A DNA stretch of 4,455 bases from a virus (Duplodnaviria > Heunggongvirae > Uroviricota > Caudoviricetes). Below are positions 2,465-4,455 of this stretch, piece by piece (the first letter of the stretch is position 1; each line of letters begins with the position of its first letter). The position numbers were made by a program, and so were the translations under genes. The DNA is taken from IMG/VR virus record IMGVR_UViG_2657245015_000009. One strand, 5' to 3'. The notes beneath the pieces were generated by a model. That model saw nothing but the letters and a program-made list of their open reading frames with translations, searched no databases and was not told the origin of the DNA.

Positions 2465-2484
2465 AAACCGCCCGCAGGCGGTTT
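2465..2484 (-). terminator. Perfect 8-bp stem / 4-nt loop hairpin in the I-J intergenic gap, followed on the minus strand by a U-rich run; possible weak intrinsic terminator, attenuator or mRNA-stability element
   Basis: Forward 2465..2472 aaaccgcc pairs with 2477..2484 ggcggttt, loop cgca. On the minus-strand transcript the hairpin is followed by UUUUGUCGUUUAU and then the J SD. The GC core is only 5 bp, so termination is likely partial at best. Confidence 0.3.
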
Positions 2485-2502: not shown

Positions 2503-3174
2503 TCAGCGACCAATCACCACAACCTGACCACCGTCCCCTTCATCTGCCGTGCTAATCTCCTGAGAGACAACACGTGACCCCACGCGCATTTCACCGTACA
2601 GAACGGGCAGAACATTGCCCTGGGCAACCATGTTATCCAGGGAGGAGAAATAGGTGTTCTGTTTGCCGTTATCCGTTGTCTGTGTACGGGGAGTTCTGGC
2701 TTTCGGTGCCAGCATCTGCGCCACACCACCGAGCACCATACTGGCACCGAGAGAAAACAGGATGCCGGTCATACCACCGGCCCCAATGGCTGCCCCCCAT
2801 GCTGCAAGGGTGGCTCCGGCAGTAAAGAATGATCCGGCAATGGCGGCTGCCCCCAGGACAATCTGGAATACACCACCTGACTTGGCCCCGGCGACTCTGG
2901 GAACAATATGAATCACAGCGCCATCAGGCAGAGTCTCATGTAACTGCGCCGTTAACCCGGACGTGCTGACGTCCCGCCCGGCAATCCGTACCTGATACCA
3001 GCCGTCGCTCAGTTTCTGACGAAACGCCGGGAGCTGTGTGGCCAGTGCCCGGATGGCTTCAGCCCCCGTTTTCACACGAAGGTCGATGCGGCGACCAAAT
3101 CGTTGTAAATCCCCGTAAAGGCAGATGCGCGCCATGCCCGGTGACGCCAGAGGGAGTGTGTGCGTCGCTGCCAT
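2503..3174 (-). CDS. I: Tail tip assembly protein I (lambda gpI-like), 223 aa, ubiquitin-like beta-grasp N-terminal domain ending in Gly-Gly followed by a Gly/Ala-rich hydrophobic segment
   Basis: Complete ORF in track (223 aa, [29 protein letters not shown]...), recognised as lambda gpI; same length as lambda I. Start ATG 3174..3172 with a GAGG-type SD about 11 nt upstream. Sits 60 nt upstream of J, as in lambda. Confidence 0.93.
   Translation of the reverse strand: MAATHTLPLASPGMARICLYGDLQRFGRRIDLRVKTGAEAIRALATQLPAFRQKLSDGWYQVRIAGRDVSTSGLTAQLHETLPDGAVIHIVPRVAGAKSGGVFQIVLGAAAIAGSFFTAGATLAAWGAAIGAGGMTGILFSLGASMVLGGVAQMLAPKARTPRTQTTDNGKQNTYFSSLDNMVAQGNVLPVLYGEMRVGSRVVSQEISTADEGDGGQVVVIGR
2707..2871 (-). 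other. Gly/Ala-rich hydrophobic segment of I (about 55 aa) with small-xxx-small spacing; possible membrane-insertion or glycine-zipper region
   Basis: VFQIVLGAAAIAGSFFTAGATLAAWGAAIGAGGMTGILFSLGASMVLGGVAQMLAP directly follows the GG and is followed by a polar C-terminal domain. Confidence 0.5.
2872..3135 (-). other. Ubiquitin-like beta-grasp domain of I (approximate bounds), ending in Gly-Gly (codons 2872..2877)
   Basis: The segment from [14 protein letters not shown] to IHIVPRVAGAKSGG has the length and hydrophobic pattern of a ThiS/MoaD/ubiquitin-like fold and terminates in GG. Confidence 0.55.
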
Positions 3175-3815
3175 TTGTCGGTATACCTCTCTCGTTTGCT
3201 CAGTTGTTCAGGAATATGGTGCAGCAGCTCGCCGTCACCACAGTAAATGGCGGCATGATTCGGCACCGATGAACCAAAACAGCACAGCAGCACATCGCCC
3301 GGCTGCGCCTCTGTCAGTGCGACACGGTAAAAACCAGTAGCCTCCATATTGTCAAGATAGAGATTCTGACCGTGACGCCACCAGTCATCCCCGCGATGAA
3401 AATTCGGCATCTCAATCCCCGCCAGATGATAAGCATCCCGGAACAGCGTGTAACAGTCCGTCACCCCGTGCTCAAAGCGCCGCCCGGTGAGATGCGGCAC
3501 ACAGCGGAACTTATGAATCGTCCCCCGGCAGACCAGCCACCACGGCAAATCACTCTGCACCTGCAGCCGCCGGTCAGCCTCACTCAGCCAGGGCAGACCA
3601 CCGGGGTGGCTGTGGACCAGCGCCACAATCTCACCCTGCATTTCTGCCTGCAGCCAGTCCTCCGGAGCCATCCGGAAATAATCCTCCGGCTCACCGGAAA
3701 TATTCACGCAGGGAAAATATCTTTCCCCCTCCGGCGCTCTCACCACGAAGCCGCACGACTCCGCTGGCGCACATCGCCGGGCGTGCGCCAGAATCGCTGA
3801 TTCTGTCTCTGTCAT
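3072..3815 (-). CDS. K: Tail tip assembly protein K (lambda gpK-like), 247 aa from the ATG at 3815; JAMM/MPN metallopeptidase domain fused to NlpC/P60 cysteine peptidase domain. Alternative internal start at 3671 would give 199 aa
   Basis: Track ORF 3072..3857 (261 aa) begins at a TTG that overlaps L; the first ATG (3815..3813, [14 protein letters not shown]...) lies 4 nt after the L stop. JAMM motif H-x-H-x7-S-x2-D present ([14 protein letters not shown]). NlpC/P60-like Cys (DCYTLF) and His (VPNHAAIY) present. Stop TGA at 3074..3072. Overlaps the start of I by 103 nt out of frame. Confidence 0.88.
3153..3485 (-). other. NlpC/P60 papain-like cysteine peptidase domain of K (approximate bounds); candidate catalytic Cys codon 3453..3455, His codon 3255..3257
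   Basis: Cys in [17 protein letters not shown] and downstream His in [17 protein letters not shown] fit the order and spacing of an NlpC/P60 Cys-His-His triad. Assigned by recognition, not alignment. Confidence 0.6.
3186..3189 (-). promoter_or_regulatory. Candidate Shine-Dalgarno (GAGG within AGAGAGG) for I, about 11-nt spacer, embedded in K coding sequence
   Basis: Minus strand reads ACGAGAGAGG-TATACCGACAA-ATG. The spacer is rather long, so this is tentative. Confidence 0.4.
3513..3812 (-). other. JAMM/MPN (JAB) metallopeptidase domain of K (approximate bounds); signature [14 protein letters not shown] at 3573..3614
   Basis: H-x-H-x7-S-x2-D motif read directly from the translation, with Glu residues upstream; domain boundaries are approximate. 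Confidence 0.7.
3682..3687 (-). promoter_or_regulatory. Strong internal Shine-Dalgarno (GGAGGA) upstream of the in-frame ATG at 3671 inside K
   Basis: Minus strand reads GCC-GGAGGA-TTATTTCCGG-ATG-GCT (Met63 of the track [17 protein letters not shown]...). This could drive a 199-aa K isoform or simply be the historical annotation start. Confidence 0.45.
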
Positions 3816-3819
3816 GGGA

Positions 3820-4455
3820 TTACTGCGAAAGTTTGTTAATGGAAAGGAAGCCGCCAAAGTTGCCGACGTTATTGCGAAACTTACAGCCGCTCAGGCATTT
3901 GCTGCATTTATCCTTCGTGATATCGGACGTCGGCTGGTCATATTCATCCGCGACTGCCGGACCGTGATAACCGCACTCATCACCGCGATAGGTCCAGGTG
4001 CAGGTGTTGGCCAGCATGATACGCCCCGGAAAAACAGCGCCATCCGTTTCCGTCGGCGTGGACAGTACAAAGGAGGCACTCACCGCGCTCAGTTCGCTGC
4101 ACTGCTCGATGCGCCAGCGGCTGATCACCTCCTGCTCCGGATCGGCGTCTCTGTTTCCGTTGACGAAGTTCACCGCATCCAGAAAACGGGCGTAAACCTT
4201 ACGCCGGACCACCGTTCCGCCGACCAGACTCTGCATATCTTCCACCATACCGGTGACCATGCCGTACAGGTTAGAGACTGCCAGCGTGGGCCGCGTACTG
4301 GTGCCTTTGCCATTCAGTTCAAAACCGCTCCCCTGAATGGCCCTTCCCGTCATGTGAAAGTTGAAACCACCGACGGCGTGGTTCAGCTCTCCGGTACCGT
4401 CGATTCCCAGGCACAGAGCGACCGTGCTGAAAGTATCGCCAAAGCGGTAGATGGT
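3820..4455 (-). CDS. L: Tail tip protein L (lambda gpL-like), 5'-partial: the N-terminus lies beyond the window end; C-terminal Cys-rich region present
   Basis: Track ORF 3820..4353 (177 aa, ...[18 protein letters not shown]...[12 protein letters not shown]...[12 protein letters not shown]...SINKLSQ) recognised as gpL. The same frame stays open upstream from 4354 to 4455 ([34 protein letters not shown]), so the track's Met at 4353 is internal. Stop TAA at 3822..3820. Confidence 0.9.
3883..4002 (-). other. Cys cluster in the C-terminal domain of L (Cys codons at 4000..4002, 3973..3975, 3904..3906, 3895..3897, 3883..3885); candidate iron-sulfur ligands
   Basis: The pattern C-x8-C ... C-x2-C-x3-C ([10 protein letters not shown] ... 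CSKCLSGC) is read from the translation; gpL-family proteins have been reported to coordinate an Fe-S cluster through C-terminal cysteines. Confidence 0.6.

What the first reader, a model, noticed from the sequence alone, without database searches (positions are those of the whole stretch)
3072..3857. Ambiguous K start: SD-less ATG coupled to the L stop versus an internal ATG with a strong GGAGGA
There are three candidate starts in one frame. The TTG at 3857 (track start) overlaps L by 38 nt. The ATG at 3815 lies 4 nt after the L stop (TAA-TCCC-ATG) with no recognisable SD, implying translational coupling. The ATG at 3671 has a strong GGAGGA 10 nt upstream and gives a 199-aa product, which is the size I recall for the classical lambda K annotation. 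However, the 3671 start leaves only 19 residues upstream of the HxH of the JAMM motif, which should truncate the JAMM fold. So either the full-length 247-aa protein is the functional peptidase, or two isoforms (with and without an intact JAMM domain) are made.
Basis: partly seen in the sequence, partly recalled or inferred. Interest (0 to 1): 0.55.

Follow-up and report, generated by a model that had tools for sequence, protein, structure and literature searches.

The report
Lambda-type tail gene K start codon
The tail-assembly gene K of this lambda-like prophage starts at the ATG right after gene L and makes a 247-residue two-peptidase protein; the textbook 199-residue lambda K comes from one base missing in the 1982 lambda reference sequence, not from a second isoform.

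Summary
The evidence picks ATG 3815, giving a 247-aa protein.

- **Domain boundary.** The JAB/JAMM domain begins about 3 residues after this Met.
- **Conservation.** In 105 distant homologs, residues 1-48 are as conserved as the rest of the protein. They include the catalytic Glu19 (95%).
- **Internal Met.** Met49 is Met in only 13% of distant homologs. It is Ile in close Stx-phage relatives.
- **Shine-Dalgarno (SD) signal.** GGAGG followed by ATG is no more frequent here than chance, and this site sits in a stable hairpin.
- **TTG 3857.** Lambda has an extra base in the L-K spacer, which puts this TTG out of frame.

The classical 199-aa lambda K is an artefact. J02459/NC_001416 lacks a G at about 14266. 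Five independently sequenced lambda-lineage records and the lambda-gt10 transgene all carry it, and it restores the 247-aa frame.

K initiation lacks an SD. It probably works by reinitiation after the L stop, in an unstructured A/U-rich stretch. This step is inferred, not shown.

This is an ordinary member of a known family. Its value is curatorial, because the truncated 199-aa K is still used. In this window L is cut off and abuts an osmY fragment, so this copy may be silent.

The parts
3072..3815 (-). Gene K coding sequence, 247 aa plus stop, starting at ATG 3815
   Evidence: This ORF is shown. Homologs are co-linear from residue 1-8. Close relatives annotate 744 nt.
3816..3822 (-). L stop TAA (3822-3820) plus the 4-nt spacer TCCC; no Shine-Dalgarno sequence. 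This is the presumed site of termination-reinitiation coupling.
   Evidence: The sequence is. Spacers of 4, 5, 5, 10 and 8 nt occur in relatives, none with an SD. L-K distances are -4 to +19 nt in 10 divergent phages.
3462..3815 (-). JAB/MPN+ (JAMM) metallopeptidase domain, residues about 1-118. Glu19 is the codon at 3761-3759, His68-Ser69-His70 at 3614-3606, Ser78 at 3584-3582 and Asp81 at 3575-3573.
   Evidence: Pfam PF14464 scores 53 bits over profile positions 4-112 of 114. The family profile matches solved JAMM proteins from position 2. The AF2 model has pLDDT 97 and Foldseek finds PfJAMM1 5lda. Conservation is E19 95%, H68 98%, H70 96%, S78 92% and D81 97%.
3102..3485 (-). NlpC/P60 (C40) papain-like peptidase domain, residues about 111-238. 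Cys121 is the codon at 3455-3453; His187 and His199/200 complete the triad.
   Evidence: Pfam PF00877 scores 47 bits. D120 is invariant, and C121, H187, H199 and H200 are conserved in at least 90% of sequences. Foldseek matches MepS/Spr.
3669..3687 (-). Internal Met49 codon (ATG 3671-3669) and the SD-like GGAGGA (3687-3682). The hexamer is the last base of the Pro43 codon, the Glu44 codon and the first two bases of the Asp45 codon. This is the classical lambda K start and is judged not to be a functional start.
   Evidence: Met49 is Met in 13% of distant homologs. The codon is ATT/ATC in Stx phages. The pairing is at chance level. The local fold is -22.5 kcal/mol with the SD-like sequence and the AUG partly paired.
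3855..3857 (-). Upstream in-frame TTG inside L; not a start
   Evidence: In lambda an extra A in the spacer puts it out of frame, and an in-frame stop lies 8 codons upstream of the ATG. Homolog N-termini extend 0-8 residues beyond Met1 in 100 of 105.
3820..4340 (-). Gene L, C-terminal part only (from about codon 56 of 232) with its stop
   Evidence: Pfam PF05100 covers profile positions 33-206 of 206. The phage match starts at query base 116.
2503..3174 (-). Gene I (Ub-like tail assembly protein), overlapping the K 3' end by 103 nt
   Evidence: The ORF is. The same layout occurs in lambda.

Best explanation
K is translated from ATG 3815, 4 nt after the L stop, into one 247-residue protein. It has an N-terminal JAMM/MPN+ zinc isopeptidase domain and a C-terminal NlpC/P60 cysteine peptidase domain. 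It is the lambda-type tail tip assembly protein K. The start has no Shine-Dalgarno sequence. Initiation most likely relies on ribosomes that have just terminated on L and reinitiate a few bases downstream, helped by an unstructured A/U-rich region. That would fit a low-abundance, non-structural enzyme. The internal ATG 3671 with GGAGGA is an ordinary Met codon preceded by Pro-Glu-Asp codons that happen to resemble an SD. The 199-aa lambda K of the textbooks arose because the 1982 reference sequence lacks one G (about position 14266). The omission puts a TGA just upstream of ATG 14276 and hides the first 48 codons. Shown here: the reading frame, the domain limits, the conservation and the reference discrepancy. 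Inferred: the coupling mechanism, low expression, and enzymatic activity on gpI or gpH.
For: Domain boundary and fold:
- Pfam Prok-JAB covers residues 18-118 of the 261-aa ORF. This is residues 4-104 of the 247-aa form, at profile positions 4-112 of 114, scoring 53 bits. The 199-aa form falls below the cut-off.
- A family profile matches solved JAMM proteins 2kks, 2kcq and 5lda from profile position 2.
- The AF2 model has pLDDT 97.2. Residues 3-36 form a helix and two strands of the fold. Foldseek finds PfJAMM1, AMSH, CSN5, Rpn11 and MepS.

Co-linearity with homologs:
- tblastn finds 1748 phage records, and 1722 of them cover at least 80% of the query. Alignments start at residues 1-8 even at 27-42% identity.
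- Against 1.84 billion representatives there are 2775 hits, and distant full-length hits are co-linear from residues 2-15.

Conservation in 105 homologs below 62% identity:
- Mean identity to the query is 0.34 for residues 1-48, against 0.38 for 49-118 and 0.37 for 119-247.
- E19 is conserved in 95%, C21 in 91%, G22 in 97% and N38 in 96%.
- Met49 is Met in only 13%.

Close relatives:
- Residue 49 is Ile in 23 of 29 clusters at 80-90% identity.
- In Stx phages, differences in codons 1-48 are mostly at third positions (14-17 of 20-27). Synonymous codon changes outnumber non-synonymous ones.
- L-K spacers differ by lengths that are not multiples of three, and lambda has no upstream in-frame start.

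RNA context: the 60-nt window at ATG 3815 folds at -7.9 kcal/mol, among the least structured 6% of windows. The window at 3671 folds at -22.5 kcal/mol.

Reference error:
- J02459/NC_001416 reads GGAGGCTATTT. KT232076, LC730321, PV340536, DE3 and lambda imm434 read GGAGGCGTATTT, which gives a 247-aa ORF.
- The lambda-gt10 transgene carries '14266 C>CG' in every copy (PMC6760142).
- In the reference, the K frame opens only at 14258.
Against: - There is no direct protein or ribosome-profiling evidence for the start; the lambda ribosome-profiling paper was not available.
- Met49 and GGAGG are kept in nearly all relatives at 90% identity or more (30 of 31 clusters). Low-level internal initiation in the lambda subgroup therefore cannot be excluded.
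- Two records (OR474059, OR974322) share the reference reading. A real stock-specific frameshift is not strictly excluded.
- Coupling to L is inferred from geometry only.
- In this window L is truncated and fused to an osmY fragment, so this copy may not be expressed at all.
Confidence: 0.9

Rival explanations
1. Two isoforms: besides the 247-aa protein, ribosomes initiate at ATG 3671 using GGAGGA. This would make a 199-aa NlpC/P60 protein with a crippled JAMM domain and a function of its own.
For: GGAGG lies 11 nt before an in-frame ATG. Met49 and the motif are retained in 30 of 31 clusters at 90% identity or more. Roughly 11,000 member sequences in four 199-aa clusters show that gene callers accept this start. 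NlpC/P60-only K versions exist in some phages (PMC1779556).
Against: Met49 is Ile in 63% of distant homologs and in close Stx phages, which still keep GGAGGCG as Pro-Glu-Ala codons. The motif frequency is at chance. The spacing is longer than the optimal range as I recall it (general knowledge, not tested here). The SD-like sequence and the AUG are partly paired in a -22.5 kcal/mol fold. The fragment would keep half a domain without Glu19 and would probably misfold.
Confidence: 0.06
2. The classical annotation is right: K is only the 199-aa product, and the 144 nt upstream are non-coding or a separate small ORF.
For: The NC_001416 and J02459 annotation says so. Some annotators keep it, with an annotated RBS, even on sequences that carry the extra G (DE3 and lambda imm434).
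Against: The upstream 48 codons evolve as coding sequence in the K frame. They are conserved across phyla-wide phage homologs and include the catalytic Glu. They are needed for the Pfam domain and the fold. The reference frame break is not reproduced in five independently sequenced lambda-lineage records or in lambda-gt10.
Confidence: 0.02
3. K starts at TTG 3857 inside L, giving 261 aa.
For: It is in frame in the window, in phage 21 and in 2B8, and it gives the longest ORF.
Against: The lambda lineage has an extra A in the spacer that puts this TTG out of frame, with an in-frame stop 8 codons upstream of the ATG. Spacer lengths vary by non-multiples of three. The homologs' N-termini coincide with Met 3815. 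No SD precedes it.
Confidence: 0.01
4. In this particular window the K gene is an intact but silent relic. The prophage has lost everything upstream of L codon about 56, including the late promoter, so no start is used.
For: The L N-terminus is replaced by an antisense osmY 3' fragment at 4339-4455. The junction is absent from 5426 complete E. coli genomes and from species representatives.
Against: K, I and the visible part of J are open and 96-97% identical to those of active phages. The identical K protein occurs in complete prophages. The junction could be an assembly chimera. This reading concerns expression, not gene structure, and is compatible with the main explanation.
Confidence: 0.35

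Closest known systems
Bacteriophage lambda gpK (tail tip assembly protein K; NP_040598.1, annotated as 199 aa)
   Same: It has the same position between L and I, with the same 103-nt overlap with I. The corrected lambda protein has the same 247 codons as the window protein and differs at 14 of them, about 94% identity. gpK is required for tail assembly but is not found in virions by mass spectrometry or cryo-EM (PMC10721106, PMC12617516).
   Different: The reference record lacks a G at about 14266, so its K is annotated 48 residues short. The window, like five independently sequenced lambda-lineage records, has the intact frame. The window spacer is TCCC; lambda's is ATCCC.
[quoted passage not shown]
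   Same: It has the same two-domain architecture and the same L-K-I-J neighbourhood, with a Ub-like TAPI downstream.
   Different: Nothing essential differs. Many distant members have a recognisable SD inside the 3' end of L, whereas the lambda subgroup has none.
Archaeal JAMM1 desampylases (Pyrococcus furiosus JAMM1, PDB 5lda with SAMP2) and eukaryotic AMSH, CSN5 and Rpn11
   Same: They share the E...HxHx7SxxD zinc site and the MPN fold. For the N-terminal domain against 5lda_A, the TM-score normalised to the target is 0.67 and the rmsd is 2.5 A. There is a weak NCBIfam desampylase hit at residues 3-103.
   Different: Here the domain is fused to an NlpC/P60 peptidase. The substrate is unknown. 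It is encoded by a phage and there is no E1/E2 partner nearby.
MepS/Spr-type NlpC/P60 (C40) peptidases
   Same: The C-terminal domain has the same fold and a Cys-His-His triad.
   Different: There is no signal peptide or lipobox. The protein is cytoplasmic and acts in assembly rather than as a known cell-wall hydrolase.

Membership tests
JAMM/MPN+ metalloisopeptidase (Pfam Prok-JAB PF14464) | Catalytic motif: Glu, then HxH, 7 residues, Ser, 2 residues, Asp | tested here: met
   The motif residues are E19, H68-S69-H70, S78 and D81. Each is conserved in 90-98% of 105 distant homologs. H68, H70 and D81 are invariant in alignment A2.
JAMM/MPN+ metalloisopeptidase (Pfam Prok-JAB PF14464) | Profile match above the curated cut-off over the whole domain | tested here: met
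   The score is 53.1 bits against a cut-off of 25, over profile positions 4-112 of 114, for the form that contains residues 1-48. The 199-aa form scores 23.4 bits and fails.
JAMM/MPN+ metalloisopeptidase (Pfam Prok-JAB PF14464) | MPN fold | tested here: met
   The AF2 model has pLDDT 97.2. Foldseek finds 5lda_A, 2kks, AMSH, CSN5 and Rpn11 at E of about 1e-4.
JAMM/MPN+ metalloisopeptidase (Pfam Prok-JAB PF14464) | Zinc binding and isopeptidase activity | not testable with these tools
   This needs biochemistry.
NlpC/P60 (C40) peptidase (PF00877) | Profile match above the cut-off, and a Cys-His-His/polar triad | tested here: met
   The score is 47.2 bits against a cut-off of 23, over profile positions 1-105 of 105. 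C121, H187 and H199/H200 are conserved in at least 90%.
Lambda-type tail tip assembly protein K (TAPK) | Gene order L-K-I-J with JAB + NlpC/P60 in one polypeptide | tested here: met
   PHROG 30 matches residues 1-247 at E 4e-162.
Lambda-type tail tip assembly protein K (TAPK) | Required for tail assembly, absent from virions | not testable with these tools
   This comes from the literature on lambda only.
Translationally coupled gene pair (termination-reinitiation) | Stop of the upstream gene within a few nt of the downstream start, with no SD | tested here: met
   The junction is TAA-TCCC-ATG, with no SD core in the 25 nt upstream. Spacers are 4-10 nt in lambda-like relatives.
Translationally coupled gene pair (termination-reinitiation) | Downstream translation depends on upstream translation | not testable with these tools
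   This needs L nonsense or polarity experiments.
Internal translation start producing an isoform | Start codon and SD conserved among homologs beyond what the protein sequence requires | tested here: not met
   Met49 is Met in 13% of distant homologs and is Ile in 23 of 29 clusters at 80-90% identity. The codon is ATT/ATC in Stx phages.

The most novel reading that the evidence does not exclude
In the lambda-proper subgroup, where Met49 and GGAGG co-occur in nearly all members, a minor 199-aa K isoform might be made from the internal ATG. It would keep the NlpC/P60 domain but have a disabled JAMM domain, and it might have a distinct role in tail tip assembly. This would be analogous to the nested products known elsewhere in lambda (C/Nu3, S105/S107; from my own knowledge).
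Probability: 0.06. Interest if true: 0.45.

Novelty: already known. Interest (0 to 1): 0.3.

Why it matters
gpK is the least understood lambda tail protein. It is required for assembly and absent from virions, and its substrate is unknown.

- Two cleavage questions remain open. Nobody knows how gpH is cut to gpH* (PMC12617516). It is also unknown whether the ubiquitin-like N-domain of gpI is removed; only gpI residues about 134-223 are seen in virions.
- The JAMM domain of K is a predicted candidate for gpI processing (PMC1779556).
- Work based on the 199-aa RefSeq sequence, as in PMC7291167, omits the catalytic Glu and a third of that domain.
- Correcting the reference (G at 14266, K = 14133..14876 in corrected numbering) would fix annotations that have been propagated from it. 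It would also explain why roughly 18% of the member sequences in the 247-aa and 199-aa clusters of close relatives start at the internal ATG.

For the window itself, the result is an ordinary, well-understood gene.

Tried and rejected
- **Literature.** Searches for a published statement that lambda K is 247 aa, or that position 14266 affects K, found only the MutaMouse variant table. No paper made the link.
- **Papers not held.** The lambda ribosome-profiling paper and the Casjens-Hendrix review were not held under the identifiers I tried, which I gave from memory. No in vivo start-site data could be used.
- **NCBIfam.** It has no specific K model, only weak hits to desampylase and to a phage NlpC family.
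- **Window source.** I searched for the exact osmY/L junction. It is not in 5426 complete E. coli genomes and gave no exact match in the species-representative genomes.
- **Programmed frameshift in the lambda reference.** I considered this as an explanation of the frame break and rejected it, because five independently sequenced lambda-lineage records simply contain the extra G.
- **Hairpin at the internal site.** I asked whether it is special. Its z-score of -1.43 against shuffles is unremarkable, so I use it only as evidence of poor accessibility.
- **Terminator scan.** It listed four chance-level sites and did not list the I-J hairpin.
Full report
**What the window is.** The minus strand carries a lambda-type tail tip module.
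- It holds the 3' part of L, then K, I and the first 814 codons of J. It is 96-97% identical to phages such as 2B8, ev243 and phage 21.
- Pfam assigns Phage_tail_L, Prok-JAB plus NlpC/P60, and Lambda_tail_I to the three complete or partial products.

**Check of the observation.** Every coordinate is correct.
- TTG 3857 overlaps L by 38 nt.
- The L stop TAA is at 3822-3820, followed by TCCC and then ATG 3815.
- ATG 3671 lies 10 nt after GGAGGA (3687-3682).
- The products are 261, 247 and 199 aa.
- From Met 3671, the HSH of the JAMM motif is at residues 20-22.
- No SD core lies in the 25 nt upstream of ATG 3815.
- The classical lambda annotation is indeed 199 aa: NC_001416 K is 14276..14875. This leaves 148 unannotated bases after L, which ends at 14127.
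- The internal SD-plus-ATG pairing is not statistically remarkable. The coding strand has 8 GGAGG against about 10 in shuffles. One is followed by ATG at 4-12 nt, against 1.28 expected.

**Where the protein begins.**
- *Domain limits.* Prok-JAB matches residues 18-118 of the 261-aa ORF at profile positions 4-112 of 114, scoring 53 bits. The domain therefore starts about three residues after Met 3815. The 199-aa form retains only profile positions 63-112 and scores 23.4 bits, below the cut-off of 25.
- *Solved structures.* A profile of 87 homologs matches the solved JAMM proteins 2kks, 2kcq and 5lda from profile position 2. The motif P-x-E-x-C-G aligns to their catalytic-Glu motif.
- *Phage homologs.* tblastn of the 247-aa form finds 1748 phage records, 1722 of which cover at least 80% of it. 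Alignments begin at residues 1-8 even at 27-42% identity. Examples are T1, phi80, KP36 and phages of Ralstonia, Burkholderia, Vibrio and Rhizobium.
- *Wider homologs.* A full phmmer scan of 1.84 billion representatives gives 2775 hits. Distant full-length members of 225-275 aa are co-linear from their own residues 2-15.
- *Conservation.* I aligned 105 homologs below 62% identity.
  - Mean identity to the query is 0.34 for residues 1-48, 0.38 for residues 49-118 and 0.37 for residues 119-247.
  - Gaps in residues 1-48 are 4.5%.
  - Conserved positions include H11 80%, A12 81%, P17 89%, E19 95%, C21 91%, G22 97%, N38 96% and F47 91%.
  - One hundred of the 105 have only 0-8 residues upstream of Met1.
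- *Coding signature.* Against Stx-phage relatives, differences in codons 1-48 are mostly at third positions (14-17 of 20-27). Synonymous codon changes outnumber non-synonymous ones, as in the rest of the gene.
- *Structure.* AlphaFold2 gives pLDDT 97.2 and pTM 0.91. Residues 3-15 form a helix, and residues 21-27 and 30-36 form strands of the MPN fold. Foldseek returns PfJAMM1 (5lda, in complex with ubiquitin-like SAMP2), AMSH, CSN5 and Rpn11 for the N-terminal domain, and MepS/Spr for the C-terminal domain.

**The internal ATG.**
- Residue 49 is Met in only 13% of distant homologs and Ile in 63%.
- Among close relatives it is Met in 30 of 31 clusters at 90% identity or more. It is Ile in 23 of 29 clusters at 80-90% identity.
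- Stx phages read ATT or ATC there while keeping GGAGGCG, which simply encodes Pro-Glu-Ala.
- The 60-nt RNA window around ATG 3671 folds at -22.5 kcal/mol, among the most structured 10% of windows in this mRNA. The SD-like bases and the AUG are partly paired.
- The window around ATG 3815 folds at -7.9 kcal/mol, among the least structured 6%. The background is -16.8 +/- 5.2 kcal/mol.
- I conclude that 3671 is an ordinary internal Met codon. Low-level initiation in the lambda-proper subgroup cannot be excluded, and I give it about 6%.

**The TTG at 3857.**
- Lambda has one more base in the spacer (TAA-ATCCC-ATG). This puts the TTG out of frame and leaves an in-frame stop 8 codons upstream of the ATG, with no alternative start.
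- Relatives have spacers of 4, 5, 5, 10 and 8 nt.
- Sequence upstream of the ATG is therefore free to change frame relative to K, so it is not K coding sequence.

**Why textbooks say 199 aa.** Aligning the window with lambda showed that the reference lacks one base just upstream of ATG 14276.
- J02459/NC_001416 reads GAGCCGGAGGCTATTTCCGTATG.
- KT232076, LC730321 (48,503 bp), PV340536, DE3 and lambda imm434 read GAGCCGGAGGCGTATTTCCGTATG. In these, the ATG 5 nt after the L stop opens a continuous 247-codon frame.
- In the reference, that upstream frame stops after 76 codons.
- In the reference, the K frame is open only from 14258, with a TGA just upstream. ATG 14276 was therefore the only start available to the original annotators.
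- Whole-genome sequencing of the lambda-gt10 transgene in MutaMouse lists '14266 C>CG' as present in every copy (PMC6760142). I also recall the supplier's notes on commercial lambda DNA listing an insertion at 14266, but that is memory, not a result.
- Only OR474059 and OR974322 share the reference reading. Whether they are independent is unknown.
- The simplest reading is a sequencing error in 1982. A stock-specific mutation is a minor alternative.
- The truncated form persists in RefSeq. It also persists in annotations of records that do contain the G (DE3 and lambda imm434, with an annotated RBS) and in recent literature ('residues 52-182 out of 199', PMC7291167).
- In the protein collection, four 199-aa clusters hold about 11,000 member sequences. 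The 247-aa clusters hold about 51,000.

**How it most likely works.**
- K is a cytoplasmic, non-virion assembly enzyme with two intact peptidase centres. These are E19/H68/H70/S78/D81, and C121/H187/H199.
- Iyer et al. proposed that it processes the ubiquitin-like protein I encoded just downstream.
- Cryo-EM sees only gpI residues about 134-223 in virions, and the protease that cuts gpH to gpH* is unknown. Both facts are compatible with that proposal but do not prove it.
- Initiation at an SD-less ATG 4 nt after the L stop, in an A/U-rich (64%) unstructured stretch, points to termination-reinitiation coupling.
- Close L-K spacing of -4 to +19 nt is conserved across 10 divergent phages. Many of these, unlike the lambda subgroup, do have an SD inside the 3' end of L.
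- Coupling and low expression are inferences.

**Caveat for this copy.**
- The first 116-118 bases of the minus strand are not L. Read on the plus strand, they are the 3' part of osmY, translating as [39 protein letters not shown].
- They meet L at about its codon 56, at window position 4340-4338.
- No complete E. coli genome and no species representative has this junction.
- It is either a decayed prophage or an assembly chimera.
- The identical K protein occurs in complete prophages, where a 232-aa L ends 4 nt upstream of it.

**Verdict.**
The isoform idea is not.
- The gene is an ordinary member of a family described in 2006 and is correctly called in the current annotations of close relatives examined here.
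- The added value is the explanation of the classical mis-annotation in the lambda reference.

Noticed in passing
window 4339-4455 (+ strand) and the junction at 4338-4340: The end of the window is the 3' part of osmY, 99% identical to E. coli osmY. It runs antisense to L and is joined to L at about codon 56, so L lacks its N-terminal ~55 residues. The junction is absent from 5426 complete E. coli genomes and from species-representative genomes. It is either a decayed prophage or an assembly chimera.
   Followed up: partly
L001 (lambda NC_001416) locus 960-977 = lambda 14259-14276: The lambda reference lacks a G (about position 14266) that is present in five independently sequenced lambda-lineage records and in lambda-gt10. 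This truncates the RefSeq K protein (NP_040598.1) to 199 aa. The MutaMouse table also lists a second indel, '137 AG>A'.
   Followed up: yes
window 2503-3174 (- strand); L022-L027 at 6642-7313: The start of gene I is called three ways on essentially the same sequence: 223 aa (ATG 3174), 210 aa (ATG 3135), and 190 aa (GTG 3075, overlapping the K stop as GTGA). The Pfam Lambda_tail_I domain begins at residue 14 of the 223-aa ORF. The 190-aa call would therefore cut into the ubiquitin-like domain. ATG 3174 lies in an unstructured region (-7.3 kcal/mol) after GAGAGAGG.
   Followed up: partly
window 2465-2484 (- strand), between the I stop (2505-2503) and the J ATG (2442): There is a G+C-rich hairpin, AAACCGCC-TGCG-GGCGGTTT, followed by TGTCGTTT. 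The equivalent site is annotated as a terminator in the phage 21 record. The simple terminator scan did not list it. It would be a terminator inside the late operon.
   Followed up: no
proteins P0044, P0061, P0067, P0070 versus P0006, P0012 and others: Four 199-aa clusters hold about 11,000 member sequences, against about 51,000 in the 247-aa clusters. About 18% of public gene calls for close relatives therefore start at the internal ATG, presumably because gene callers reward the GGAGG.
   Followed up: partly
proteins P0009, P0022, P0037, P0045, P0051 (L-K) and P0017, P0029, P0066, P0105 (K-I): Some database entries fuse L with K, or K with I, in one polypeptide (Pfam PF05100 + PF14464, or PF00877 + PF06805). 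With a 4-5 nt L-K spacer, a single-base indel would fuse the frames. Whether these are sequencing errors, pseudogenes or real fusions was not examined. Iyer et al. mention TAPI fusions.
   Followed up: no
L-K spacer: window 3816-3819; L006, L028-L031, L010: The spacer between the L stop and the K ATG varies among close relatives (TCCC, ATCCC, ATCCA, ATCCCGGTTT, and GACTTTTT in Providencia). None of them has a Shine-Dalgarno sequence. Distant phages (T1, phi80, mEpX1, Vibrio H8) do have one inside the 3' end of L.
   Followed up: partly
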